A DNA stretch of 64,000 nt from NCBI GenBank assembly GCA_964368135.1, contig CAYIZI010000001.1, forward strand, positions 42,926-106,925, in the 5' to 3' direction. Origin of the DNA: an uncultured Candidatus Saccharibacteria bacterium. Its GTDB lineage: Bacteria; Patescibacteriota; Minisyncoccia; 2-02-FULL-40-12. The first letter of the stretch is position 1. Each line of letters starts with the position of its first letter. The position numbers were made by a program, and so were the translations under genes. Positions 7,513 through 58,503 of this stretch are shown here, piece by piece. The notes beneath the pieces are model-generated. The model searched no databases, had not been told where the DNA came from, and worked only from the letters and a program-made list of their open reading frames with translations.

Positions 7513-8193
7513 TTAACTATCTAAAAGTTTGATCCGAATCTTGTTGATGGCTTTGGTGTGAAGTTGCCGGACTTTGCTCTCAACGACCCCGAGAACCTGT
7601 CCGATCTGCTTAAAGGTGGCATCTTCGAAGTAATAAAGATGCACCACAATTCTTTCTTGCCGAGACAGCGTTGCAATTACATTCCTGAGACGCTTTTGGG
7701 TTTCTTTTCTTTCATATATTTTTTCTGGCGACTCAGGTTGGGGCGGGACAACTTCATCCGGCAACATCGCCGTTTCACCATTCAAACCGGCTATTGATTC
7801 CATGGCTCTGATCCGCCAAATCGTTCGCCTTATGCCTTTCTTCCAGCCGAGTCGAGCAGCTAACTCGGCATAAGAAGGTCCTTCTCCCAGTTCGGCTCGC
7901 AAGGATTCTTCAGCCTCCAAAAGCCGCCGCCTTTGTTTACGTATGGACCGCGGCCAAGCATCATGACGCATACCGTCCATCATCGCCCCGCGAATCCGTT
8001 TTGCAGCAAAAGTCTTGAGCTTGATGCCGCGGCTTTCATCAAATCGGCTGAGAGCATCAATCAAACCGATTACGCCGTATTGAACAAGGTCGTTCGCCTC
8101 AACGCTGGACGGCAGTCCTTTTGCCATATTCCAGGCAATCTGCTTAATAAGTGGAAGGGTCTCAACAATTTTCGAAGAATGATCTTCTGTCAA
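7513..8193 (-). CDS. RNA polymerase sigma factor, sigma-70 family group 3 (FliA/WhiG/SigB-like)
   Basis: The region 2 motif LVQYGVIGLIDALSRFD and the region 4 HTH LSRQERIVVHLYYFEDATFKQIGQVLGVVESKVRQLH. Visibly more GC-rich than neighbouring genes. Confidence 0.75.
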   Translation of the reverse strand: MTEDHSSKIVETLPLIKQIAWNMAKGLPSSVEANDLVQYGVIGLIDALSRFDESRGIKLKTFAAKRIRGAMMDGMRHDAWPRSIRKQRRRLLEAEESLRAELGEGPSYAELAARLGWKKGIRRTIWRIRAMESIAGLNGETAMLPDEVVPPQPESPEKIYERKETQKRLRNVIATLSRQERIVVHLYYFEDATFKQIGQVLGVVESKVRQLHTKAINKIRIKLLDS

Positions 8194-9463: not shown

Positions 9464-10091
9464 TGCTCGTCGTTAATTCTTTTAATGCCTCTCCAATATT
9501 ATCGCTCTTAAAAATATAGCTTCCGACTGCTGCCCGGCTAACCCCGACAGCTTCAACCAACTTTACTATTTCGGGTTTAATTCCGCCATCAACCTGAATT
9601 ACCTTATTTGGATATTGGCTTTGGAAATTCTTGATTTTCTCCAAAACTTCTGGCAAAAACGGCGAACCGTAAAAACCAGGGTCTACAGTCATGAACTGGA
9701 CTAAATCAATCCGATCTGTATAAGGTTCCGATACTATCCAGTTTGTTTGGGGATTAAAAACAAGGCCAATCTCTTTACCATTGGTGCTTAATTCATTTAT
9801 AACGGCATCAATCTCGGCGGTACTCTCCCAATGAATTAGAAACCTTATGGCTTTTGTTTTTAGCCAGCGGCCGATCTGGCCCTCCGGATTATTAACCATC
9901 AAATGAACTTCAAAGTTAAGTTTTGTGTTTATTTTTTGCAATTCCTCATAGCCGCCGATAGTTTTATTCGGCACAAATGCACCATCGGCAATATCTAAGT
10001 GGACTAAATCAGTATGAGGCTCTACCGCGCGAATCATTGTTTCAAATTCTTCTGGCGTTTTAGCGAGGATGGCAGGAATAATTTTTATCAT
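9456..10091 (-). CDS. rpe: Ribulose-phosphate 3-epimerase
   Basis: LHLDIADGAFVPN, HLMV and MTVDPGF...VDGGI motifs. Confidence 0.85.
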   Translation of the reverse strand: MIKIIPAILAKTPEEFETMIRAVEPHTDLVHLDIADGAFVPNKTIGGYEELQKINTKLNFEVHLMVNNPEGQIGRWLKTKAIRFLIHWESTAEIDAVINELSTNGKEIGLVFNPQTNWIVSEPYTDRIDLVQFMTVDPGFYGSPFLPEVLEKIKNFQSQYPNKVIQVDGGIKPEIVKLVEAVGVSRAAVGSYIFKSDNIGEALKELTTSNV

Positions 10092-52702: not shown

Positions 52703-53179
52703 TTAACGAGTGACTTCGATTATTTGTCCAAGCTCAGCTGAAGGCGCACTAATTGTAACCCTTCCAGCTGAATCAACTTCTAAATCATAGCCAGTATCGT
52801 CTCCTACTGCTGATGTTGGATCTGTAGGAAATGACGGAACGTATGTTGGTGTAAGGCAAGAAAGATCAATATCTCCTGCCACGGCACCAGAAGTAACAAT
52901 ATCGACTGCCGAACCGGCAGCTGGAAGCGATGGACATGTATATGTAGTGCCGCCGATTGTGAATGAACCGCTGAAAATTCCTTTATTATCAGCAATCCTT
53001 TGGCCAACTGAGTTCAAAATAGTGTTAGCATTACTGGTTCTCTGGGTATTTCTGCCTTGGGCAAACTGTCTGGCTGGGTTTATGGCGATCAAGACAATAG
53101 TTGCTAAAATAGCAATAATCCCGATAACTACCAGAATTTCAATAAGGGTAAAGCCCCTATTTTTTCTTTGATTTTTCAT
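52703..53179 (-). CDS. Type IV pilin (prepilin with an N-terminal G/FTLIE class III signal), likely major pilin
   Basis: KNRG-FTLIEILVVIGIIAILATIVL and two C-terminal Cys. Confidence 0.8.
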   Translation of the reverse strand: MKNQRKNRGFTLIEILVVIGIIAILATIVLIAINPARQFAQGRNTQRTSNANTILNSVGQRIADNKGIFSGSFTIGGTTYTCPSLPAAGSAVDIVTSGAVAGDIDLSCLTPTYVPSFPTDPTSAVGDDTGYDLEVDSAGRVTISAPSAELGQIIEVTR

Positions 53180-53269: not shown

Positions 53270-53731
53270 TTATGGAAAATTTCCTATCTCTTCCCAAGAT
53301 TCAACTTCTATTTTGCCAAATGGTTTTGAAACAATTATTTCAAGATTAGTATAGGAACTTTTATTGCCGTCTTGAGGGTATTTGCCTTGAACTTGGATTG
53401 TCTTAGTCCCAGAGCCGGATATTGAATAAATAATACATGAATCATCACCAACCGGAATAGTTTCGCCAGGCGGCGAAAGCGAGTAATCATTAAATTCGTC
53501 ATCATTTAGCGCCTGTAATTTTAAAATCGCGGTGTCGGCGCAGGCCTCGGCCAAGCCAATGCTTTTTTCCTTAAACTCTGAATCAAGAACATTTATCCTG
53601 GCGAAAAAACTGCGAAAGCCCAAAGCAAAAGTAATAGTCATCAAAATAATGGCAATAATGACCGTAGAAATCAAAGCAATATAGCCGTTTTTATTTCCGG
53701 ATAAATTTGGTGGTCTCATAATAAAAATCAT
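53270..53731 (-). CDS. Minor pilin-like protein with a non-canonical leader (PilX-like)
   Basis: Hydrophobic N-terminal helix NGYIALISTVIIAIILMTI, but no Glu at +5. Confidence 0.45.
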   Translation of the reverse strand: MIFIMRPPNLSGNKNGYIALISTVIIAIILMTITFALGFRSFFARINVLDSEFKEKSIGLAEACADTAILKLQALNDDEFNDYSLSPPGETIPVGDDSCIIYSISGSGTKTIQVQGKYPQDGNKSSYTNLEIIVSKPFGKIEVESWEEIGNFP

Positions 53732-54209
53732 TTAAGTAAAAGTTGGTCTTGACTGCTGGGGGCTGGCCAGTGGCTGAAGGAGGAATATACTCAAAGCTCA
53801 AAGTGGCGGCTTTTACGCTATCGCTGTCTAAGGCCAAAAAAACTCCTATCCCTGGATCAATCTCAATATTTTCGTTAACCAATCTAAATTTGACTCGTTG
53901 GGATAAACCATATTTATCAACTGACAGTTCATCCCCTTCTGGCGGGATAATTATTGGAGTTGGGTTTGATAAATCTATTCCAGTCAACGCCCAATTTATT
54001 TTCCGCAAAACAAAGTTGGCCTCGTCGCTGATTAAAACCTTAATGTTGGAACGGTCGGTTGCTTCAATAACTGAATAAACCGAAACAATCACTCCGGCCA
54101 TTAATAGAGAAAAAAGAGCTATATATATTAGCACTTCAATAATGGTAAATCCATTTTCGTGACTAAATTTAGACATCAGAAAATCAATTGCAAACTGGTG
54201 ATGGTTCAA
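53691..54209 (-). CDS. Minor pilin/pseudopilin (prepilin-type N-terminal cleavage/methylation domain)
   Basis: HENG-FTIIEVLIYIALFSLL. Confidence 0.7.
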   Translation of the reverse strand: MNHHQFAIDFLMSKFSHENGFTIIEVLIYIALFSLLMAGVIVSVYSVIEATDRSNIKVLISDEANFVLRKINWALTGIDLSNPTPIIIPPEGDELSVDKYGLSQRVKFRLVNENIEIDPGIGVFLALDSDSVKAATLSFEYIPPSATGQPPAVKTNFYLNDFYYETTKFIRK

Positions 54210-55785
54210 TAATCCGCAGTTTGCTTTGTTGGTTAGTTACTGTGTAGATAACGTCGTTCTCATAAGCAAAGTTTTGCGGGTCTACTGAAAAGTTATAGGG
54301 ACAGGTATCCCATCTCTCAATATTGGCCGGATCACTTACATCTAAAACAAGAAAGGGGTCGTTGGGATCTCTTGTTGTAACAAAAGCTAACTGTCCTGAA
54401 ACTTTAATGCCGGTAATGCCCGCACCCTGGTTATAATTAAAAAAATCATTAAAGTTTACTGACCCAGGAGCAGAAGATAAGTCGTTAGTATCAACAACGT
54501 AAAAATCTCGGTCATTCCCTGGATTTGAACGTCCTATTCCAAGATAAATTTTATTTCCAATAACATATAAATCTCTCCCGTCTTTTGAACTTGCCGAACC
54601 GTCGGCTCTTTCCGCATCAAAGGTACCGGCAATAGTTATATTTAAAGGATTGGCTATATTAAGAACGATAATTTCCTCGTTATTAGAAGAAGTGGCAAGA
54701 TAGGCCCTATCCTCTCTTACTTCAATATCATTGATATTATGATCTACTTGGGTAGAGCCTGTATTCCCAAGGTGAACGGGGTTTGTTGGATCAGTTACAT
54801 CAAAAATGTGAAACTCCGAACCGCCAACTCTATGGGTACCTATATAAATGCGGTTATTGTAATAAGCAATGCTTCGTCCGCCGGGACAAGTAAAATTACA
54901 AGTTCCACTTACTCCGGGTAAAGACACAGAAGCAATTTGAATAGGCGCCGCGGGGTCAGTCACATCAATTACCTGGAGTTGGCCGCTGGCTTTTTCATTG
55001 CCGCTGCCACTGCCGTCATCCGGATCGTAAAAATCTCCGTGGATACTGGCCGCAAAAATATAACGTTTATTTAACGATTGAAAATCAACGGCCACTAAAT
55101 CAACAATCCCGTTTAGTTTTTTACCTGGTCCCCAATCCACCCCGATACTCCCTAAAAAAACTGGGTTTGAAGTATTAGCCGCATCATAAATAAATAGGTC
55201 ATCTAAATTTTCATTAGAATCATAGACCCCTAAGTAAACAATCTTATTCAGGACGGCAATACTTTCACCGTTAACAGTATTTATAATAATATTGTCGTGA
55301 TTGGTTACGGGATTCCTCCAATTATCATTTGACGGAGATATTATGGAACAATTACTGCCAGCATCAATAAAAGCTTTTAGACTGCCGATAATACTAGAAA
55401 TACTTATTGATTGAGGCCTGTTTTCCACATCCCAATCAATAGTACTTTTAATTTCTTTGACACAGGGAGAGATATCTAATACTTCTAAAGTTTTAGTGTA
55501 AATGTCAGTCGTAGTCGGAGTTGTAGAAATAATGGAGTTAAATTCTCCGACTGTACCACGAGATTGAGCTCGAGTATTCTCAAGTTCCTCTTGAGCAAAA
55601 TACAAAGCTTCCTGATTTGTCTCGGTGTCTATTTCGGTTGACTGACCGCCAAACAAAACCATTATCACCGCGGAAATCGTCAAAACGAAAATAAACATCG
55701 CAATCATAATTTCCATTGTGGTCAGACCGCTTTCTAACCCGCTCTGGCGCTTAAGTTTCTTAGTAATTGATCCGGCCTTGTTCAT
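54184..55785 (-). CDS. Prepilin-leader protein fused to an LVIVD-repeat beta-propeller domain, candidate pilus tip adhesin
   Basis: N-terminal SG-LTTMEIMIAMFIF (Glu at +5). The C-terminal ~430 aa carry repeated LQVIDVTDPAAP / FHIFDVTDPTNP / FLVLDVSDPAN / IIVLNIANPLN LVIVD-type repeats. Confidence 0.7.
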   Translation of the reverse strand: MNKAGSITKKLKRQSGLESGLTTMEIMIAMFIFVLTISAVIMVLFGGQSTEIDTETNQEALYFAQEELENTRAQSRGTVGEFNSIISTTPTTTDIYTKTLEVLDISPCVKEIKSTIDWDVENRPQSISISSIIGSLKAFIDAGSNCSIISPSNDNWRNPVTNHDNIIINTVNGESIAVLNKIVYLGVYDSNENLDDLFIYDAANTSNPVFLGSIGVDWGPGKKLNGIVDLVAVDFQSLNKRYIFAASIHGDFYDPDDGSGSGNEKASGQLQVIDVTDPAAPIQIASVSLPGVSGTCNFTCPGGRSIAYYNNRIYIGTHRVGGSEFHIFDVTDPTNPVHLGNTGSTQVDHNINDIEVREDRAYLATSSNNEEIIVLNIANPLNITIAGTFDAERADGSASSKDGRDLYVIGNKIYLGIGRSNPGNDRDFYVVDTNDLSSAPGSVNFNDFFNYNQGAGITGIKVSGQLAFVTTRDPNDPFLVLDVSDPANIERWDTCPYNFSVDPQNFAYENDVIYTVTNQQSKLRIIEPSPVCN

Positions 55786-56233
55786 TGATGGTTATGGTTA
55801 AGGGAGGTTTACCCACGCTAATCAGAGTAATCTCAAGCGGCGCCGCCGCTACATTCCCAGTCAGCTGCTCAAAATTTATAATCCCGGACCAGGCTATCCC
55901 TAATCTTTCTATCGGGATACTTTCATTGCTTGGATCATTTGGAACGTAAACTGAACCTTCAAAAATTACAAGCTCTTTTTTAGCGTCATCATAATAAACG
56001 CTGTAAGACGACTGATTAATATTGCTGACGGCCTGATTCCTGGCTTTCTGCAAAATACTTATCACTATATCTTTGTCGTAATTAAAAGAATAGGTTCGGT
56101 AAAAATCCATACTCAAAAAAAGGCCGATGCCCATTAGCAGAACCAAAATACCGATGGCAACCAGAATTTCAATAATAGAGAATCCGTTACTACGCCGGCC
56201 GGCTAAATTAAGGCGAGAGGTTCCTGGTAATTT
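55760..56233 (-). CDS. Pseudopilin (GspH/FimT-like)
   Basis: RRSNG-FSIIEILVAIGILVLL. Start taken at MKLPGT. Confidence 0.7.
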   Translation of the reverse strand, partial: KLPGTSRLNLAGRRSNGFSIIEILVAIGILVLLMGIGLFLSMDFYRTYSFNYDKDIVISILQKARNQAVSNINQSSYSVYYDDAKKELVIFEGSVYVPNDPSNESIPIERLGIAWSGIINFEQLTGNVAAAPLEITLISVGKPPLTITINEQGRINY

Positions 56234-57278
56234 CATAAATCGGGGTAATGATTGAAACAGCAATAAAGCCGACAATCAAACCCATAAACACCATCAAAGC
56301 CGGCTCAAGGATCGTAGATAAATTCTTAGTCAGTTCGTCCATCTCGGCCTCATACATTTCGGCCAGATAAAGTAAAGTTTCATCCAAGCGGCCGGTTGAT
56401 TCGCCGATTTCAATCAAATGAGTCAAAATATGCGGGAAAAGGTCTGGCCTTCTTTCCATCTGACTGACTATTTTTTCGCCCTTAACCACGCACTTTGAAA
56501 TCTTCACAAGTTCGTTTCGGTAGACCAGATTAGTGGTCGTCTGCGAGGCAATTAAAAAAGCATTAATCACTCTGATGTCGCTTTTGATCAAAATTCCAAG
56601 GGTCCGGCAAATATTGGCCAAGTGATAATTCTTGAATATCGGACCAATCAAAGGCATTTTAAAGCTGGCCAGGTGCAGAAGATAGCGAAACTTATCCGAA
56701 GTCCTAAAAAAAACAATTAAACCAACCGCCAAAACAATAATCCCGGCAACTAAAAACAACCCATAGGCCTTCAAAAAATCAACGCTGGCAATCAGGGCCC
56801 GGGTAGTAAGGGGCAGGTTCACATTCAAACTGGCGAAAATCGGCAAAATCTTCGGGAAAATATAAAGAGTTAAAAGGCCGGCCAAACCTAAAGTAGCAAT
56901 AATTATAAAAATCGGATAAACCAGCGCGCCCATCACTTTACGCTGCAGGGCCTGCTTTTTCTTCATCTCATCGGCCAAATAGTTCAGGTTCTCGTCCAGA
57001 GTACCGCTCTCTTCGCCGACCCGAATCAAATTAATGGCCAGCTGGTCAAAGTTATGCCGAAACTTAGCCAAACTGCTTGAAAGATACTGACCGTTGGAAA
57101 CGTCTTTAATCACCTGGTCAAGAACCAATGACTTGGCGCCCGATGGACTTTGTTTTCTTAAAATATTTAAACTCTGGAGCAAGGGCACGCCGGCCTTAAC
57201 CAAAAAAGACAGCCGCTTGGCAAAAAGGGTTTTCTCTTTTACGGAAATTCTGGTAAATAACTCTCTTAATCTACTCAT
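56208..57278 (-). CDS. pilC: Type IV pilus assembly platform protein PilC (GspF family)
   Basis: Two GspF repeats and the conserved ...LVYPIFIIIATLGLAG and ...MVFMGLIVGFIAVSII helices. Confidence 0.85.
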   Translation of the reverse strand: MSRLRELFTRISVKEKTLFAKRLSFLVKAGVPLLQSLNILRKQSPSGAKSLVLDQVIKDVSNGQYLSSSLAKFRHNFDQLAINLIRVGEESGTLDENLNYLADEMKKKQALQRKVMGALVYPIFIIIATLGLAGLLTLYIFPKILPIFASLNVNLPLTTRALIASVDFLKAYGLFLVAGIIVLAVGLIVFFRTSDKFRYLLHLASFKMPLIGPIFKNYHLANICRTLGILIKSDIRVINAFLIASQTTTNLVYRNELVKISKCVVKGEKIVSQMERRPDLFPHILTHLIEIGESTGRLDETLLYLAEMYEAEMDELTKNLSTILEPALMVFMGLIVGFIAVSIITPIYEITRNLSP

Positions 57279-58503
57279 TGATCACTCTCAAAACTTCCTC
57301 CAGAGTGGTAATGCCTTCTTTGGCTTTCCTGATGCCGTCCTCAACTATAGTGGTCATCCCATTGCCGGAAGCGATTAACTTAATCTCATTGGCCGAAGCC
57401 CTCCTTAAAAAAGCTTCTCTGACCATATTGTCTACAACCATCACTTCAAATATGCCGACTCGGCCCTGAAAACCGGTCTCGCCGCATTTCTCACAGCCCC
57501 TGCCGTAATAAAACTGCCAGTTGGAATCTGAACCCAAAACCGAATTCTGGAAAAAATTTTCCAAGCTCTTCTTTTCGGCGTCGGTCAGCTTTCTTAAAGT
57601 TTTGCATTTGGGGCAAATTTTCCTGACCAATCTCTGGGCAATGGCCAAGTTGACCGTTGAAGCAACCAGGTACGGCTCAACTTTCATATCTAATAATCTG
57701 GGCAAAGTGGTGGCCGCGTCATTGGTATGCAAAGTGGACAAAAGCAGGTGGCCGGTTAAAGCGGTGTTGACAGCTAAGGCCGCGGTCTCAACATCTCTGA
57801 TTTCGCCAACCATTATTATATCGGGGTCCTGCCGTAAAATTGACCTTAGTCCGTTGGCAAAGTTTAAGCCGACCCGGGAATTAACCTGAATCTGTTCAAT
57901 TCCTTCAACCGCGTATTCAATCGGGTCCTCCACCGTGACAATTGAAACATCTTTGTTGTTTAAAAATTTTAAAACGGTGTAAAGAGTGGTGGTTTTGCCA
58001 GATCCGGTCGGTCCGGTGGCTAAAATCATGCCGTGACTTTTTTTGGCGGCCCTCAAAACCTTTTCCTTGTCTGACGGACTAAAGCCAAGTTTATCCAAAG
58101 TGTATTCTTCTTCCTTATCTGATAAAAGACGCAAAACCGCGTTCTCGCCGTAATAGGTTGGAGCTACGGAAACGCGAATATCAATCGGCGCCTGCCCGTC
58201 AAAAGCAATACTGAACCGGCCGTCTTGAGCAGTCTGGTGTTCGTCAGTCCTTAAGTTTGATAAAATTTTAATTCTGGAAACCACCTCTGATTTGATTTCT
58301 CTTGGAAAAGTAAAAAAATCCTGCAAAACGCCGTCAATTCTAAACCTGATTCTGACTCCCTTTGTGCCCGGGTCAATATGAATATCCGAAGCCCGCGAGT
58401 TGTGGGCGTATTCTATTAAGTTGTCCACCAGGCTGATTAAGGAAATCTGTTCAGAGTTTTGCTCAATTTCCCGCTCAATTTTATTTCTTAGTTCTGTTGA
58501 CAT
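57271..58503 (-). CDS. pilB: Type IV pilus assembly ATPase PilB (GspE family), short form
   Basis: Walker A GPTGSGKTTT, Asp box, His box and the tetracysteine CPKC...CEKC motif that distinguishes PilB/GspE from PilT. Confidence 0.85.
   Translation of the reverse strand: MSTELRNKIEREIEQNSEQISLISLVDNLIEYAHNSRASDIHIDPGTKGVRIRFRIDGVLQDFFTFPREIKSEVVSRIKILSNLRTDEHQTAQDGRFSIAFDGQAPIDIRVSVAPTYYGENAVLRLLSDKEEEYTLDKLGFSPSDKEKVLRAAKKSHGMILATGPTGSGKTTTLYTVLKFLNNKDVSIVTVEDPIEYAVEGIEQIQVNSRVGLNFANGLRSILRQDPDIIMVGEIRDVETAALAVNTALTGHLLLSTLHTNDAATTLPRLLDMKVEPYLVASTVNLAIAQRLVRKICPKCKTLRKLTDAEKKSLENFFQNSVLGSDSNWQFYYGRGCEKCGETGFQGRVGIFEVMVVDNMVREAFLRRASANEIKLIASGNGMTTIVEDGIRKAKEGITTLEEVLRVINE

What the first reader, a model, noticed from the sequence alone, without database searches (positions are those of the whole stretch)
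54184..55785. Prepilin leader fused to an LVIVD-repeat beta-propeller inside the type IV pilus operon, a candidate pilus-tip adhesin
The N-terminus (SG/LTTMEIMIAMFIF, Glu at +5) is a class III prepilin signal like the four neighbouring pilins. The remaining ~430 aa consist of six or more LVIVD-type repeats (LQVIDVTDPAAP, FHIFDVTDPTNP, FLVLDVSDPAN ...), which form beta-propellers. A pilin-anchored propeller would sit at the pilus tip or along the fibre. In episymbiotic CPR bacteria, type IV pili are the presumed host-attachment organ, so this is a plausible host-recognition determinant. The fusion itself (pilin + LVIVD propeller) is not a described minor-pilin architecture to my knowledge, since PilY1-type adhesins lack the pilin leader.
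Basis: partly seen in the sequence, partly recalled or inferred. Interest (0 to 1): 0.65.

Follow-up and report, generated by a model that had tools for sequence, protein, structure and literature searches.

The report
Minor pilin fused to beta-propeller
A gene inside the type IV pilus operon of an ultrasmall groundwater bacterium encodes a pilus subunit with a seven-bladed propeller domain grafted onto it, most likely the binding tip of the pilus. The design is a known kind (a modular pilin), but this large family is uncharacterised and its propeller appears to be swapped between close relatives.

Summary
ORF 54184-55785(-) encodes 533 aa with four parts: a 20-residue basic leader ending in Gly; Leu+1...Glu+5 and a 55-residue alpha1 helix; a small beta-sheet pilin head; and a seven-bladed LVIVD beta-propeller (AF2 pLDDT 90). 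It lies second in a block of four minor-pilin genes between pilB/pilC and the major pilin. The same cassette surrounds homologues down to 24% identity in seven other Patescibacteria loci. The pilin module scores best against ComGE/PilV/GspI models, the "I-type" core minor pilin, though below curated cut-offs. Most likely this is a prepilin-peptidase-processed minor pilin that sits in the pilus-priming tip complex and displays the propeller as a ligand-binding module.

Raynaud et al. 2021 already tabulate N_methyl + LVIVD architectures among "modular pilins". In Saccharibacteria TM7x, a propeller-bearing minor pilin (PilX2) contributes to host binding.

New here:
- The family is large: 166 clusters at E<=1e-30.
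- It appears to occupy the I-type position.
- It is mosaic. In the closest relative alpha1 is 100% identical but the propeller only 37%, while more distant genomes keep a 66-68% identical propeller.

Function, cleavage and tip location are inferred, not shown. Interest is moderate.

The parts
54184..55785 (-). Whole gene: 533-aa modular minor pilin (stop codon 54184-54186)
   Evidence: ORF listing. The identical product is called on three independent assemblies. 152 homologues were found.
55726..55785 (-). Leader peptide, residues 1-20 (MNKAGSITKKLKRQSGLESG): basic, ending in Gly-1. This is the predicted prepilin-peptidase cleavage site.
   Evidence: Read from the sequence. Gly-1 is conserved in 67 of 69 family members. 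pLDDT is below 50 for residues 1-16. No other in-frame start lies between this ATG and Gly20.
55561..55725 (-). alpha1 helix, residues 21-75: Leu+1, Glu+5, the hydrophobic alpha1N, then an amphipathic alpha1C carrying the conserved TNQEALYxAQxxLExxRA motif
   Evidence: AF2 predicts a helix over 21-75 and over 3-59 of the isolated module. Glu+5 is present in 71 of 73 members.
55348..55560 (-). Pilin head, residues 76-146: antiparallel beta-sheet plus a short helix, with a covarying Cys108/Cys146 pair
   Evidence: AF2 strands 91-134, pLDDT above 90. Cys108/Cys146: both present in 57, neither in 11, one only in 6 of 74. The module matches ComGE in 30/35, PilV in 21/35, XpsI in 16/35 and GspI in 9/35 members.
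54187..55347 (-). Connector and seven-bladed LVIVD beta-propeller, residues 147-533, with covarying Cys296/300 and Cys495/532 pairs
   Evidence: Pfam LVIVD 26.2 bits against a 20.2 cut-off, and 70 of 74 members hit. Seven LVIVD-like strands. AF2 model. Foldseek top hits are seven-bladed propellers. Cys covariation.
54190..55600 (-). Segment that is replaced in the closest relative (L011). Nucleotide identity falls from 99-100% to 31-64% here and returns to 93-94% just past the stop codon.
   Evidence: Sliding-window identity. Per-gene and per-module protein identities. BLASTP alignment with P0009.
57271..58503 (-). PilB/GspE-type assembly ATPase (410 aa)
   Evidence: Pfam T2SSE, 8e-123. NCBIfam GspE/PilB core, below the equivalog cut-offs.
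56208..57278 (-). PilC/GspF-type platform protein (356 aa)
   Evidence: Pfam T2SSF, 4.8e-51. NCBIfam GspF/PilC.
55760..56236 (-). First minor pilin (158 aa; the longest ORF runs to 56275), G|FSIIE, GspH/ComGD/FimU-like. It overlaps the start of the target gene by 26 nt.
   Evidence: Pfam N_methyl. Weak ComGD/PpdA hits. Orthologues hit GspH at 1.5e-9 and ComGD at 1.7e-5.
53691..54176 (-). Third minor pilin (161 aa; the longest ORF runs to 54209), G|FTIIE, weakly GspJ-like
   Evidence: Pfam N_methyl. Weak GspI/GspJ hits. Orthologues hit GspJ at 0.012 and 0.007.
53270..53719 (-). Fourth pilin-like gene (149 aa; the longest ORF runs to 53731), G|YIALI without Glu+5, in the GspK/PilX/ComGG position
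   Evidence: Read from the sequence. No family hit. One orthologue hits GspK at 0.007.
52703..53179 (-). Likely major pilin (158 aa), G|FTLIE
   Evidence: Pfam N_methyl at 1.2e-9 and TIGR02532 at 2.7e-8, the strongest class III signal in the operon. It is last in the cassette in seven of the eight related loci; L011's contig ends before that position.

Best explanation
The gene encodes a modular minor pilin of a type IV filament system.

**Proposed mechanism**
1. The 20-residue basic leader is removed at Gly20|Leu21 by a prepilin peptidase encoded elsewhere in the genome.
2. The hydrophobic alpha1 helix (with Glu+5) and a small beta-sheet head form a GspI/PilV/ComGE-type ("I-type") core minor pilin.
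3. This subunit assembles with the three neighbouring minor pilins (H-, J- and K-like) into the complex that primes pilus assembly on PilC/PilB. That complex ends up at the distal tip of the fibre built from the 158-aa major pilin.
4. A disulfide-stabilised seven-bladed LVIVD propeller of about 385 residues is joined to the head by a confidently modelled connector rather than a floppy linker. It is too bulky for the body of the fibre, so it is displayed at the tip.
5. At the tip it acts as the ligand-binding (adhesin) module. In an episymbiotic Patescibacterium the ligand is most plausibly a host-cell surface structure.
6. The propeller-coding part of the gene is exchanged between lineages by recombination, using the conserved alpha1-coding 5' end and the downstream pilin gene as flanks. 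This alters binding specificity without touching the assembly interface.

**Shown:** the architecture, the conservation, the synteny, the fold prediction, the Cys covariation and the mosaic pattern.
**Inferred:** cleavage, incorporation into the fibre, tip location, adhesion and the nature of the ligand.
For: **Architecture**
- One ORF is found identical on three assemblies.
- The AF2 model has pLDDT 90.2 and pTM 0.87, with helix 21-75, sheet 91-134 and a propeller from about 160 to 533. The isolated pilin module has pLDDT 90.9.

**Class III signal**
- Gly-1 is present in 67/69 and Glu+5 in 71/73 family members. Leader lengths are mostly 4-25 residues.
- In the orthologue from L004, a 92-aa GIY-YIG domain sits inside the leader and ends exactly at ...LTG|FSTLE. 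Such an insert is tolerable only if the leader is cut off.

**I-type identity**
- The pilin module hits ComGE in 30/35 members, PilV in 21/35 (best 8.3e-10), XpsI in 16/35 and GspI in 9/35.
- It is the second of four minor-pilin genes. The neighbours weakly match GspH/ComGD, GspJ and GspK. The fourth lacks Glu+5, as GspK-type pilins do (established knowledge).

**Machinery linkage**
- The order PilB - PilC - pilin - LVIVD pilin - pilin is seen in all eight related loci examined. Seven of them also show a further pilin-like gene and the major pilin; L011's contig ends after the third pilin. The loci are L001, L004, L005, L006, L007, L008, L009 and L011, reaching down to 24% identity. L001 is the window's own population, so seven are independent. 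In a ninth locus, L010, the order PilB - PilC - pilin - LVIVD pilin - pilin is kept, but the fourth position holds a 641-aa SpaA_2+VWA protein and the N_methyl pilin lies further downstream.

**Extracytoplasmic location**
- Three Cys pairs covary across the family.

**Family coherence**
- A profile of the pilin module alone finds 166 representatives (50% clusters) at E<=1e-30. Nearly all are 460-560 aa. The short ones are fragments that run into the propeller.

**Precedent**
- S. sanguinis PilB and PilC are modular pilins (PMC8179133).
- TM7x PilX2 is a propeller-bearing minor pilin, and its deletion lowers host binding from 10.6% to 4.6% (PMC11623550).

**Module exchange**
- Against L011, PilB is 88%, the H pilin 88% and the J pilin 89% identical. 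Within the target, residues 1-65 are 100%, the head 63% and the propeller 37% identical.
- Against the more distant L004 and L005, the propeller is 66-68% identical while the other pilins are 38-57%.
- The nearest relatives of the L011 propeller belong to another subgroup.
Against: - Pfam N_methyl and TIGR02532 do not hit this protein. All ComGE/PilV/GspI scores seen for the window protein are below the curated cut-offs.
- Foldseek of the pilin module against the PDB found nothing significant (best E = 0.16), so the pilin fold rests on the AF2 topology read by eye.
- Leu at +1 is unusual in this family, where Phe is commonest.
- No prepilin peptidase, PilT or PilM/N/O was found in the window.
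- No ligand, binding site or expression evidence exists.
- The LVIVD propeller has no characterised function and no solved homologue by sequence.
- Blades 3-4 are strongly conserved across the family (E324 98%, Y362 97%). This fits a conserved partner or activity better than a purely host-specific surface.
- The mosaic pattern comes from metagenome assemblies. A chimeric contig cannot be fully excluded, although it would need two junctions.
Confidence: 0.62

Rival explanations
1. It is a tip-displayed module with a non-adhesive job. One option is an enzyme, such as a hydrolase or lyase acting on the host envelope or on polymers. Another is a DNA-binding module of a competence-type pilus. The pilin part works as in the best explanation, but the propeller does not recognise a host.
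For: - The best PDB fold hit is a seven-bladed phosphotriesterase, 5hrm, at E = 8e-11.
- Polar residues in blades 3-4 are nearly invariant across the whole family: E324 98%, H326 82%, N352 79%.
- The cassette layout (ATPase, platform, four minor pilins, major pilin, no PilT nearby) resembles ComG operons. The pilin module's most frequent hit is ComGE.
- Modular pilins with DNA-binding or peptidase modules are known, for example ComZ and IPR030392 (PMC8179133).
Against: - Similarity to 5hrm is generic: 12% identity, TM 0.5, and WD40 proteins score alike.
- No catalytic family is hit in Pfam or NCBIfam.
- The ATPase and platform score higher against GspE/PilB and GspF/PilC than against ComGA/ComGB.
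- Wholesale replacement of the propeller between close relatives fits a specificity determinant better than a housekeeping enzyme.
- In TM7x the pilus that carries the propeller pilin was not needed for competence.
Confidence: 0.2
2. It is not a pilus subunit. The N-terminus acts as an uncleaved signal-anchor, or as a pseudopilin that never leaves the membrane, and holds the propeller at the cell surface. There it could serve as an assembly, alignment or envelope-spanning accessory of the machine, comparable to a "choice-of-anchor" LVIVD surface protein.
For: - N_methyl models do not reach threshold.
- No PilD is present in the window.
- LVIVD propellers are commonly cell-surface proteins carrying other anchors. 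TIGR04312 choice-of-anchor B hits at 3e-8, below its cut-off. Many non-pilin LVIVD homologues exist.
- TM7x PilX1 and PilX2 are not predicted to have PilD signals.
Against: - Gly-1 and Glu+5 are 95-97% conserved among ungapped members. A plain membrane anchor would not need them.
- The head has pilin topology and I-type HMM affinity.
- The gene always occupies the same slot among the minor pilins.
- A folded GIY-YIG domain tolerated upstream of the G|F site in an orthologue implies processing.
Confidence: 0.13
3. It is an artefact. Two genes (a small pilin and a secreted propeller protein) were joined by a sequencing or assembly error, or the repeats are a chance pattern.
For: The data are metagenome-assembled, and the start codon overlaps the upstream gene by 26 nt.
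Against: - The identical 533-aa product occurs on three independent assemblies.
- More than 100 full-length homologues of 460-560 aa keep the same fusion.
- AF2 models the junction with pLDDT above 90.
- The LVIVD hit is above the Pfam gathering score.
Confidence: 0.01

Closest known systems
Modular type IV pilins (Raynaud et al. 2021, PMC8179133), including the catalogued architecture IPR012902 (N_methyl) + IPR013211 (LVIVD)
   Same: An N-terminal pilin module carries a bulky module that is not specific to T4P. The proposed role is tip display and ligand binding. The exact domain combination is already listed: 30 proteins with 1-13 LVIVD hits, including an 860-residue Ca. Falkowbacteria protein.
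   Different: That paper only tabulates the architecture and calls the motif "of unknown function". It gives no structure, gene context or minor-pilin type. The studied examples, S. sanguinis PilB (vWA) and PilC (lectin), carry unrelated modules. Most members of the present family escape an N_methyl-based census, since only 12 of 74 are hit.
PilX2 of Nanosynbacter lyticus TM7x (Saccharibacteria) T4P-2 (Grossman et al., PMC11623550)
   Same: [quoted passage not shown] Its deletion roughly halves host binding, and it is proposed to be the tip adhesin.
   Different: The PilX2 propeller is described as having RCC1 repeats, and no RCC1 family is hit here. PilX2 is reported to lack a predicted PilD signal, whereas this family has conserved Gly-1 and Glu+5. 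PilX2 is named for the X position, whereas this protein is I-type (PilV/GspI/ComGE-like) by HMM and gene order. I did not compare the two sequences directly.
PilY1/PilC tip adhesins of diderm T4aP (Pseudomonas, Neisseria, Myxococcus)
   Same: A beta-propeller is presented at the pilus tip together with the four core minor pilins, with roles in adhesion and priming (established knowledge; discussed).
   Different: PilY1 is a separate, non-pilin protein with a Sec signal that docks onto the minor-pilin complex. Here the propeller is covalently part of a minor pilin. The Pfam PilY1 propeller family is not hit, and no PilY1 structure is among the 50 best fold matches.
GspI / PilV / ComGE core minor (pseudo)pilins
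   Same: A class III signal with Glu+5, a small head made of alpha1 plus a short antiparallel sheet, second place in the H-I-J-K gene order, and best HMM affinities to these families.
   Different: All hits seen for the window protein are below the curated cut-offs. Known members are about 100-140 aa with no extra domain, whereas this one carries a C-terminal propeller of about 385 aa.
Other large minor pilins with grafted domains: CofB/TcpB (T4bP), ComZ (Thermus), GspK
   Same: Tip-located minor pilins whose extra structural domains mediate ligand, DNA or partner binding (PMC8179133 discussion).
   Different: Their folds differ (beta-repeat/beta-sandwich, beta-solenoid, alpha-domain) and they belong to different pilus classes. 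None is a propeller.
LVIVD-repeat cell-surface proteins (Adindla et al. 2004, PMC2447325; NCBIfam choice-of-anchor B, TIGR04312)
   Same: The same repeat family forms a propeller on extracytoplasmic proteins that use interchangeable anchoring devices.
   Different: Those proteins use Sec signals with other anchors. Here the anchor is a pilin. The TIGR04312 score of 33 bits is far below its cut-off of 100.

Membership tests
Type IV pilin / class III signal peptide protein | Short, positively charged leader ending in Gly at -1 | tested here: met
   The leader is MNKAGSITKKLKRQSGLESG, with 5 Lys/Arg. Gly-1 is present in 67/69 family members.
Type IV pilin / class III signal peptide protein | Glu at +5 within an otherwise uncharged hydrophobic stretch of about 20 residues | tested here: met
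   The stretch is LTTMEIMIAMFIFVLTISAVIMVLFGG. Glu+5 is present in 71/73 members.
Type IV pilin / class III signal peptide protein | Curated HMM for the N-terminal methylation motif (Pfam PF07963, TIGR02532) above threshold | tested here: not met
   There is no hit for the window protein at E<=1. Only 12/74 family members hit N_methyl at E<=0.01, and 5/35 hit TIGR02532. The miss probably reflects Leu+1/Thr+2/Thr+3 in place of the consensus FTLIE.
Type IV pilin / class III signal peptide protein | Lollipop fold: a long N-terminal alpha1 helix packed on an antiparallel beta-sheet | tested here: inconclusive
Type IV pilin / class III signal peptide protein | Cleavage and N-methylation by a prepilin peptidase (PilD, peptidase A24) | not testable with these tools
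   No PilD-like gene was found in the window: ten candidate ORFs gave other families, and there is no GxGD[VIFLAM]K motif in any frame. The rest of the genome is not available.
Type IV pilin / class III signal peptide protein | Encoded with type IV filament machinery (assembly ATPase, platform protein, other pilins) | tested here: met
   T2SSE and T2SSF genes lie immediately upstream, and four pilin-like genes surround the target. The same order PilB-PilC-pilin-LVIVD pilin-pilin is seen in L001, L004-L009 and L011. L010 keeps that order, but its fourth position holds a SpaA_2+VWA protein.
GspI / PilV / ComGE (I-type core minor pilin) | Sequence similarity to the family models | tested here: inconclusive
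   The window module scores ComGE 3e-5 (24 bits against a cut-off of 49) and PilV 0.007. Across the family, ComGE hits 30/35, PilV 21/35 (best 8.3e-10), XpsI 16/35 and GspI 9/35 members. These are consistently the top families, but the window protein's scores are below curated thresholds.
GspI / PilV / ComGE (I-type core minor pilin) | Second position in a four-gene H-I-J-K minor-pilin block, with a K-type partner lacking Glu+5 | tested here: met
   Gene order is given. The first gene matches GspH/ComGD, the third weakly GspJ, and the fourth weakly GspK with G|YIALI.
Modular pilins (sensu Raynaud et al. 2021) | An N-terminal pilin module followed by a module that also occurs outside type IV filament proteins | tested here: met
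   The pilin module spans residues 21-146 and the LVIVD propeller 147-533. The same propeller family occurs in non-pilin proteins of Anaerolineae and others.
LVIVD-repeat beta-propeller (PF08309) | Pfam gathering score reached, with repeats forming propeller blades | tested here: met
   The score is 26.2 bits against 20.2, and 70/74 family members hit. There are seven LVIVD-like strands and an AF2 strand pattern consistent with seven blades. Top fold matches are seven-bladed propellers.
PilY1 / PilC adhesin family | PilY1-type C-terminal propeller domain (Pfam Neisseria_PilC / IPR008707), a Sec-type signal and no pilin N-terminus | tested here: not met
   No such Pfam hit appears at E<=1 or across 74 members. 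No PilY1 chain is among the 50 best PDB fold matches. The protein has a pilin-type N-terminus.
TM7x PilX2-like propeller pilins | RCC1-repeat heptabladed propeller on a pilin without a predicted PilD signal | tested here: not met
   No RCC1 family is hit, and this family has conserved Gly-1 and Glu+5. A direct sequence or structure comparison with PilX2 was not possible because its sequence was not held.
Choice-of-anchor B family (TIGR04312) | NCBIfam curated cut-off (100 bits) | tested here: not met
   The score is 33.3 bits at E = 3e-8, covering residues 326-490 only. The propeller is related, but the protein is not a member.

The most novel reading that the evidence does not exclude
Across Parcubacteria-type Patescibacteria, the GspI/PilV-type core minor pilin is itself the pilus-tip receptor-binding protein, a built-in counterpart of PilY1. 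Its LVIVD propeller is a swappable cassette. Recombination between the invariant alpha1-coding 5' end and the downstream pilin gene moves propeller alleles between lineages and so sets which hosts an episymbiont can attach to. This is analogous to the exchange of tail-fibre tips among phages. Propeller allele class would then predict host range in uncultivated CPR.
Probability: 0.25. Interest if true: 0.7.

Novelty: new member of a known kind. Interest (0 to 1): 0.42.

Why it matters
How uncultivated Patescibacteria find and hold their hosts is largely unknown outside a few cultured Saccharibacteria. This family offers a concrete, widespread candidate for the binding end of the pilus in Parcubacteria-type lineages.

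It also has a clear modular boundary and evidence that the binding module is exchanged between close relatives. Three things become testable as a result:
- recombinant propellers can be used as probes for host cells or glycans;
- allele classes can be correlated with co-occurring hosts in time-series metagenomes such as Hainich;
- the pilin module can be used to ask how a bulky domain is accommodated in a priming complex.

There is a methodological point as well. Domain-architecture censuses that rely on the N_methyl model miss most of this family (12 of 74 detected).

Conceptually it adds little: modular pilins and a propeller-bearing CPR minor pilin are already published.

Tried and rejected
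2. **Profile searches of PDB sequences.** The pilin module gave only N-terminal-helix similarity to geopilin and PilA at E = 0.13. The whole family gave no solved homologue.
3. **The search for related loci.** The 74- and 15-sequence alignments failed because no conserved stretch was found. Context was obtained through the look-up of encoding contigs instead.
4. **Looking for PilD, PilT or PilM in the window.** Ten candidate ORFs proved to be unrelated families. No peptidase A24 motif occurs in six frames.
5. **PilY1 and RCC1/PilX2 membership.** No family hits were found, so both were rejected.
6. **Enzyme reading from the 5hrm phosphotriesterase match.** This is generic propeller similarity only. 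It is kept as a minor rival, not adopted.
7. **Viral structure library.** It returned generic propellers in giant-virus and phage proteins, with no specific receptor-binding-protein relationship.
8. **The listing of cluster members.** It gave no organism names. Taxonomy therefore rests on named homologues and the sample source.
9. **Alternative start at Met24.** This would remove the leader. It was rejected because Gly20 and the residues at +1 to +3 upstream of Met24 are conserved in the family.


Full report
**1. What is in the sequence**

It overlaps the end of the upstream pilin gene by 26 nt. No other in-frame start lies between this ATG and Gly20. The identical protein is called on three independently assembled contigs. 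Two come from Hainich groundwater well H51 (0.1 um fraction) and one from a Logan assembly. The window has about 41% G+C.

The nearest named homologues are Candidatus Yanofskybacteria and "Patescibacteria group" MAGs at 62-66% identity. The CPR assignment is therefore reasonable, although it rests on homologues and sample type; an exact look-up returned no organism names.

**2. The N-terminus**

The sequence is MNKAGSITKKLKRQSGLESG|LTTMEIMIAMFIFVLTISAVIMVLFGG. It has a basic 20-residue leader, Gly at -1, Glu at +5 and an uncharged hydrophobic stretch.

The curated N_methyl/TIGR02532 models do not hit it. The family settles the question instead. In an alignment of 74 full-length relatives, Gly-1 is present in 67 of 69 ungapped sequences and Glu+5 in 71 of 73. 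The consensus is G-F-S-T-L-E-I-L-I-A. Position +1 is variable (F 30, Q 12, V 7, S 6, I 6), and leaders are mostly 4-25 residues long. Only 12 of the 74 are recognised by Pfam N_methyl at E<=0.01, so model insensitivity is the more likely reason for the miss than absence of the motif.

A start at Met24 would remove the leader. It is unlikely, because the residues upstream of Met24 are conserved as protein.

**3. The fold**

AlphaFold2 with the 74-sequence alignment gives pLDDT 90.2 and pTM 0.87. The model has these elements:
- a disordered leader;
- a 55-residue helix (21-75);
- an antiparallel sheet (strands 91-134) with a short helix;
- a confidently modelled connector (pLDDT above 90 for residues 141-160);
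- a propeller to the C-terminus.

The isolated module (residues 17-150) folds the same way, with pLDDT 90.9.

Seven LVIVD-type strands are present: LFIYD, LQVID, FHIFD, IIVLN, FYVVD, FLVLD and LRIIE. Together with the strand pattern they indicate seven blades. Pfam LVIVD is above its gathering score (26.2 against 20.2 bits). Foldseek against the PDB returns generic seven-bladed propellers at about 10-12% identity: the 5hrm phosphotriesterase and WD40 proteins. No PilY1 chain is in the top 50. No solved structure is related by sequence.

Three cysteine pairs covary across the family:

| Pair | Both present | Neither | One only |
|---|---|---|---|
| 108/146 | 57 | 11 | 6 |
| 296/300 | 22 | 51 | 1 |
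| 495/C-terminal | 32 | 37 | 5 |

This is what disulfides in an extracytoplasmic protein would produce.

**4. Which pilin it is**

Scanning 35 family pilin modules against NCBIfam gave the hits below.

| Model | Members hit (of 35) | Note |
|---|---|---|
| ComGE | 30 | |
| PilV | 21 | best E = 8.3e-10 |
| XpsI | 16 | |
| GspI | 9 | |

These are the mutually equivalent "I-type" core minor pilins of Com pili, T4aP and T2SS (established knowledge). All scores seen for the window protein are below curated cut-offs, so this is an affinity, not a proven membership.

Gene order agrees. The cassette reads as follows:

| Order | Gene | Size | Site or type |
|---|---|---|---|
| 1 | PilB-like ATPase | 410 aa | T2SSE |
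| 2 | PilC-like platform | 356 aa | T2SSF |
| 3 | minor pilin | 158 aa | G\|FSIIE |
| 4 | the target | 533 aa | G\|LTTME |
| 5 | minor pilin | 161 aa | G\|FTIIE |
| 6 | pilin-like gene | 149 aa | G\|YIALI, no Glu+5 |
| 7 | probable major pilin | 158 aa | G\|FTLIE |

Orthologues of the first, third and fourth minor pilins weakly match GspH/ComGD (1.5e-9, 1.7e-5), GspJ (0.012, 0.007) and GspK (0.007). Lack of Glu+5 is typical of the K-type. The ATPase and platform score as truncated GspE/PilB and GspF/PilC cores, and lower against ComGA/ComGB.

**5. Conservation of the arrangement**

The order PilB - PilC - pilin - LVIVD pilin - pilin is seen around every related locus examined. In most loci a further pilin-like gene and the major pilin follow:
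- the window's own population, L001;
- P0009, whose contig ends after the third pilin;
- Ca. Yanofskybacteria L004 and L005;
- P0023 at 36% identity;
- Ca. Jorgensenbacteria P0052 at 30%, with one extra gene;
- Ca. Pacebacteria P0062 at 28%;
- P0096 at 24%;
- P0077 at 28%, where the fourth position holds a 641-aa SpaA_2+VWA protein instead.

A profile of the pilin module alone, searched against 1.84 billion cluster representatives, finds 166 proteins at E<=1e-30 and 2718 at E<=1e-10. Of the 150 best, nearly all are 460-560 aa. The short ones are contig-end fragments that already run into the propeller. The long ones (700-1073 aa) mostly keep LVIVD and several add C-terminal Big_3_5 Ig-like domains.

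So this particular pilin module is essentially always joined to the propeller. The family is a large, coherent and so far unnamed family. Every full-length homologue that carries an organism name is from Patescibacteria, apart from P0070, which NCBI labels Acetobacteraceae.

**6. Mosaic structure**

P0009 (locus L011) comes from the genome whose neighbouring genes are closest to the window. Identities to the window protein and its neighbours are as follows:

| Gene or region | L011 (closest) | L004 / L005 (more distant) |
|---|---|---|
| PilB | 88% | 70% (L004) |
| PilC | 73% | 65-69% |
| H pilin | 88% | 38% |
| J pilin | 89% | 47-56% |
| major pilin | not on contig | 48-57% |
| target residues 1-65 | 100% | 53-58% |
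| target head, 66-150 | 63% | 48-56% |
| target propeller, 151-533 | 37% | 66-68% |

At nucleotide level the pattern against L011 is sharp:
- about 80% through pilB and pilC;
- 94-100% from about 56055 to 55600;
- 31-64% from there to the stop codon;
- 93-94% again from 54144.

In L004 and L005 the propeller is better conserved than any other pilin in the cassette. The nearest relatives of the L011 propeller (44-47%) belong to a different subgroup, while its head is of the window's class.

The simplest reading is that the extracellular part, and especially the propeller, has been replaced by recombination. The conserved alpha1-coding region and the downstream gene serve as flanks. The caveat is that these are metagenome assemblies. 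A chimeric contig would need two junctions, which is unlikely but not excluded.

**7. Mechanism proposed**

Shown:
- a single gene with a class III-type N-terminus, a pilin-like head and a seven-bladed LVIVD propeller;
- conserved placement among minor pilins next to PilB and PilC;
- covarying cysteines;
- a modular mosaic.

Inferred:
- cleavage at Gly20|Leu21 by a prepilin peptidase encoded elsewhere (none found in the window);
- assembly with the H-, J- and K-like neighbours into the priming complex that becomes the pilus tip, by analogy with GspI-J-K and FimU-PilVWX (established knowledge);
- display of the propeller at the tip, because a rigidly attached 385-residue domain cannot be packed in the fibre body;
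- ligand binding, plausibly to a host surface.

Indirect support for processing comes from L004. There the orthologue carries a whole GIY-YIG domain inside its leader, ending precisely at ...LTG|FSTLE. That would be incompatible with pilin function unless the leader is removed.

Points against a purely host-specific adhesin:
- blades 3-4 are strongly conserved family-wide (E324 98%, Y362 97%, H326 82%), which may reflect an interface or a common ligand or activity;
- there is no functional precedent for LVIVD propellers.

**8. Comparison with what is known**

- The kind is known. Raynaud et al. 2021 defined modular pilins from S. sanguinis PilB. Their InterPro census lists IPR012902 followed by one to thirteen IPR013211 hits, 30 proteins by my count, with a Ca. 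Falkowbacteria example in the text. IPR013211 is the LVIVD repeat. They describe it only as a motif of unknown function.
- In Saccharibacteria TM7x, the minor pilin PilX2 carries a heptabladed propeller with RCC1 repeats. Its deletion lowers host binding from 10.6% to 4.6% without abolishing the filament.
- The present protein works like these but is not a member of the PilX2 or PilY1 families. No RCC1 or PilY1 domain is hit.
- It differs in having a conserved canonical cleavage motif and an I-type pilin module.
- No paper in the searchable library links LVIVD with pilins beyond the dataset entry.

**9. Verdict**

- I file it as a new member of a known kind (a modular minor pilin).
- Three additions are worth recording: the size and coherence of the family, its I-type position in a conserved cassette, and the evidence for propeller swapping.
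- Interest is moderate, at 0.42.

**10. Side observation**

GIY-YIG nuclease domains are inserted in frame in prepilin leaders, in L004 and in many other CPR pilins. I found no published description of this. It may deserve its own follow-up, but it is not a feature of this window's pilin genes.

Noticed in passing
L004:6996-7295, 7754-8053 and 9607-9906 (Ca. Yanofskybacteria RIFCSPHIGHO2_01_FULL_44_17, MGJI01000027.1; orthologous pilus cassette): Three consecutive minor-pilin genes (H-type, the LVIVD pilin P0006 and J-type) each carry an in-frame 300-nt insert encoding a GIY-YIG nuclease domain inside the leader. The layout is leader-G FTPLETT-MFYTYVL...KNRLKRSL(P/S)LTG|F(T/S)xxE-alpha1. Copies 1 and 3 are 98% identical and copy 2 is 82%. 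The insert ends exactly at the prepilin cleavage site, and its 5' junction mimics a second G|FxxxE site. This looks like a mobile element that targets pilin-leader DNA and would be removed from the pilin by prepilin peptidase.
   Followed up: partly
Proteins P0261-P0377 (search with L004:9611-10060 translated): The GIY-YIG-prepilin fusion is recurrent. 25 of the 120 best hits are at least 190 aa, and in 19 of them the domain abuts a canonical G|F(T)(L/I/V)(I/V/L)E site, often serving as the whole leader. The pilins include T2SSG-type major pseudopilins (P0270, P0317). The rest include K-type pilins (P0302, P0311) and proteins from Ca. Lloydbacteria (P0327) and Terrybacteria (P0377). One canonical fusion is from Omnitrophica (P0290). 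The remaining 2025 hits are mostly free-standing 86-aa GIY-YIG proteins. A literature search for GIY-YIG plus prepilin found nothing on this.
   Followed up: partly
window:59178-59438 (-): A free-standing GIY-YIG mini-ORF of 86 aa (MFYVYLLKSDKNKKLYIGITT...) lies between the DUF5671 gene and the DedA/VTT gene, about 3.4 kb upstream of the target. The gene caller did not call it on the orthologous contig L001. It belongs to the same broad family as the leader-inserted elements but is not fused to a pilin here.
   Followed up: no
L010:8052-9977 (JGI 3300045502, context of P0077): In an otherwise syntenic cassette, the fourth (K-type) minor-pilin position is occupied by a 641-aa protein with SpaA_2 and VWA domains. 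It may be a second adhesin-like module in the same tip complex, reminiscent of the vWA modules in S. sanguinis PilB and PilY1.
   Followed up: no
P0175 (1073 aa), P0205, P0241 and other 700-1073 aa members: Longer members of the same pilin-module family add Big_3_5 Ig-like domains after the LVIVD propeller (P0175, P0205). P0241 shows Big_3_5 but no LVIVD hit at the threshold used, and P0175 has four Big_3_5 domains. The tip module can therefore be extended further.
   Followed up: partly
window:46371-51047 (-): A 1558-aa single ORF fuses several glycosyltransferase domains (GT2, GT2-like, GT4/GT1) with a long polytopic membrane region. It lies 1.6 kb downstream of the pilus cassette. This is an unusually large fusion, possibly a surface-glycan synthase.
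   Followed up: no
window:52156-52635 (-): A DUF192 (COG1430) gene with an N-terminal membrane anchor follows the major pilin directly. It is not part of the cassette in the other loci, so the adjacency is probably incidental.
   Followed up: partly
L009:2153-4203 (GCA_964578695.1, context of P0096): In this distant cassette the PilB ATPase carries an N-terminal MshEN domain (555 aa) and is preceded by a response-regulator gene. The window's 410-aa ATPase lacks N-terminal domains.
   Followed up: no
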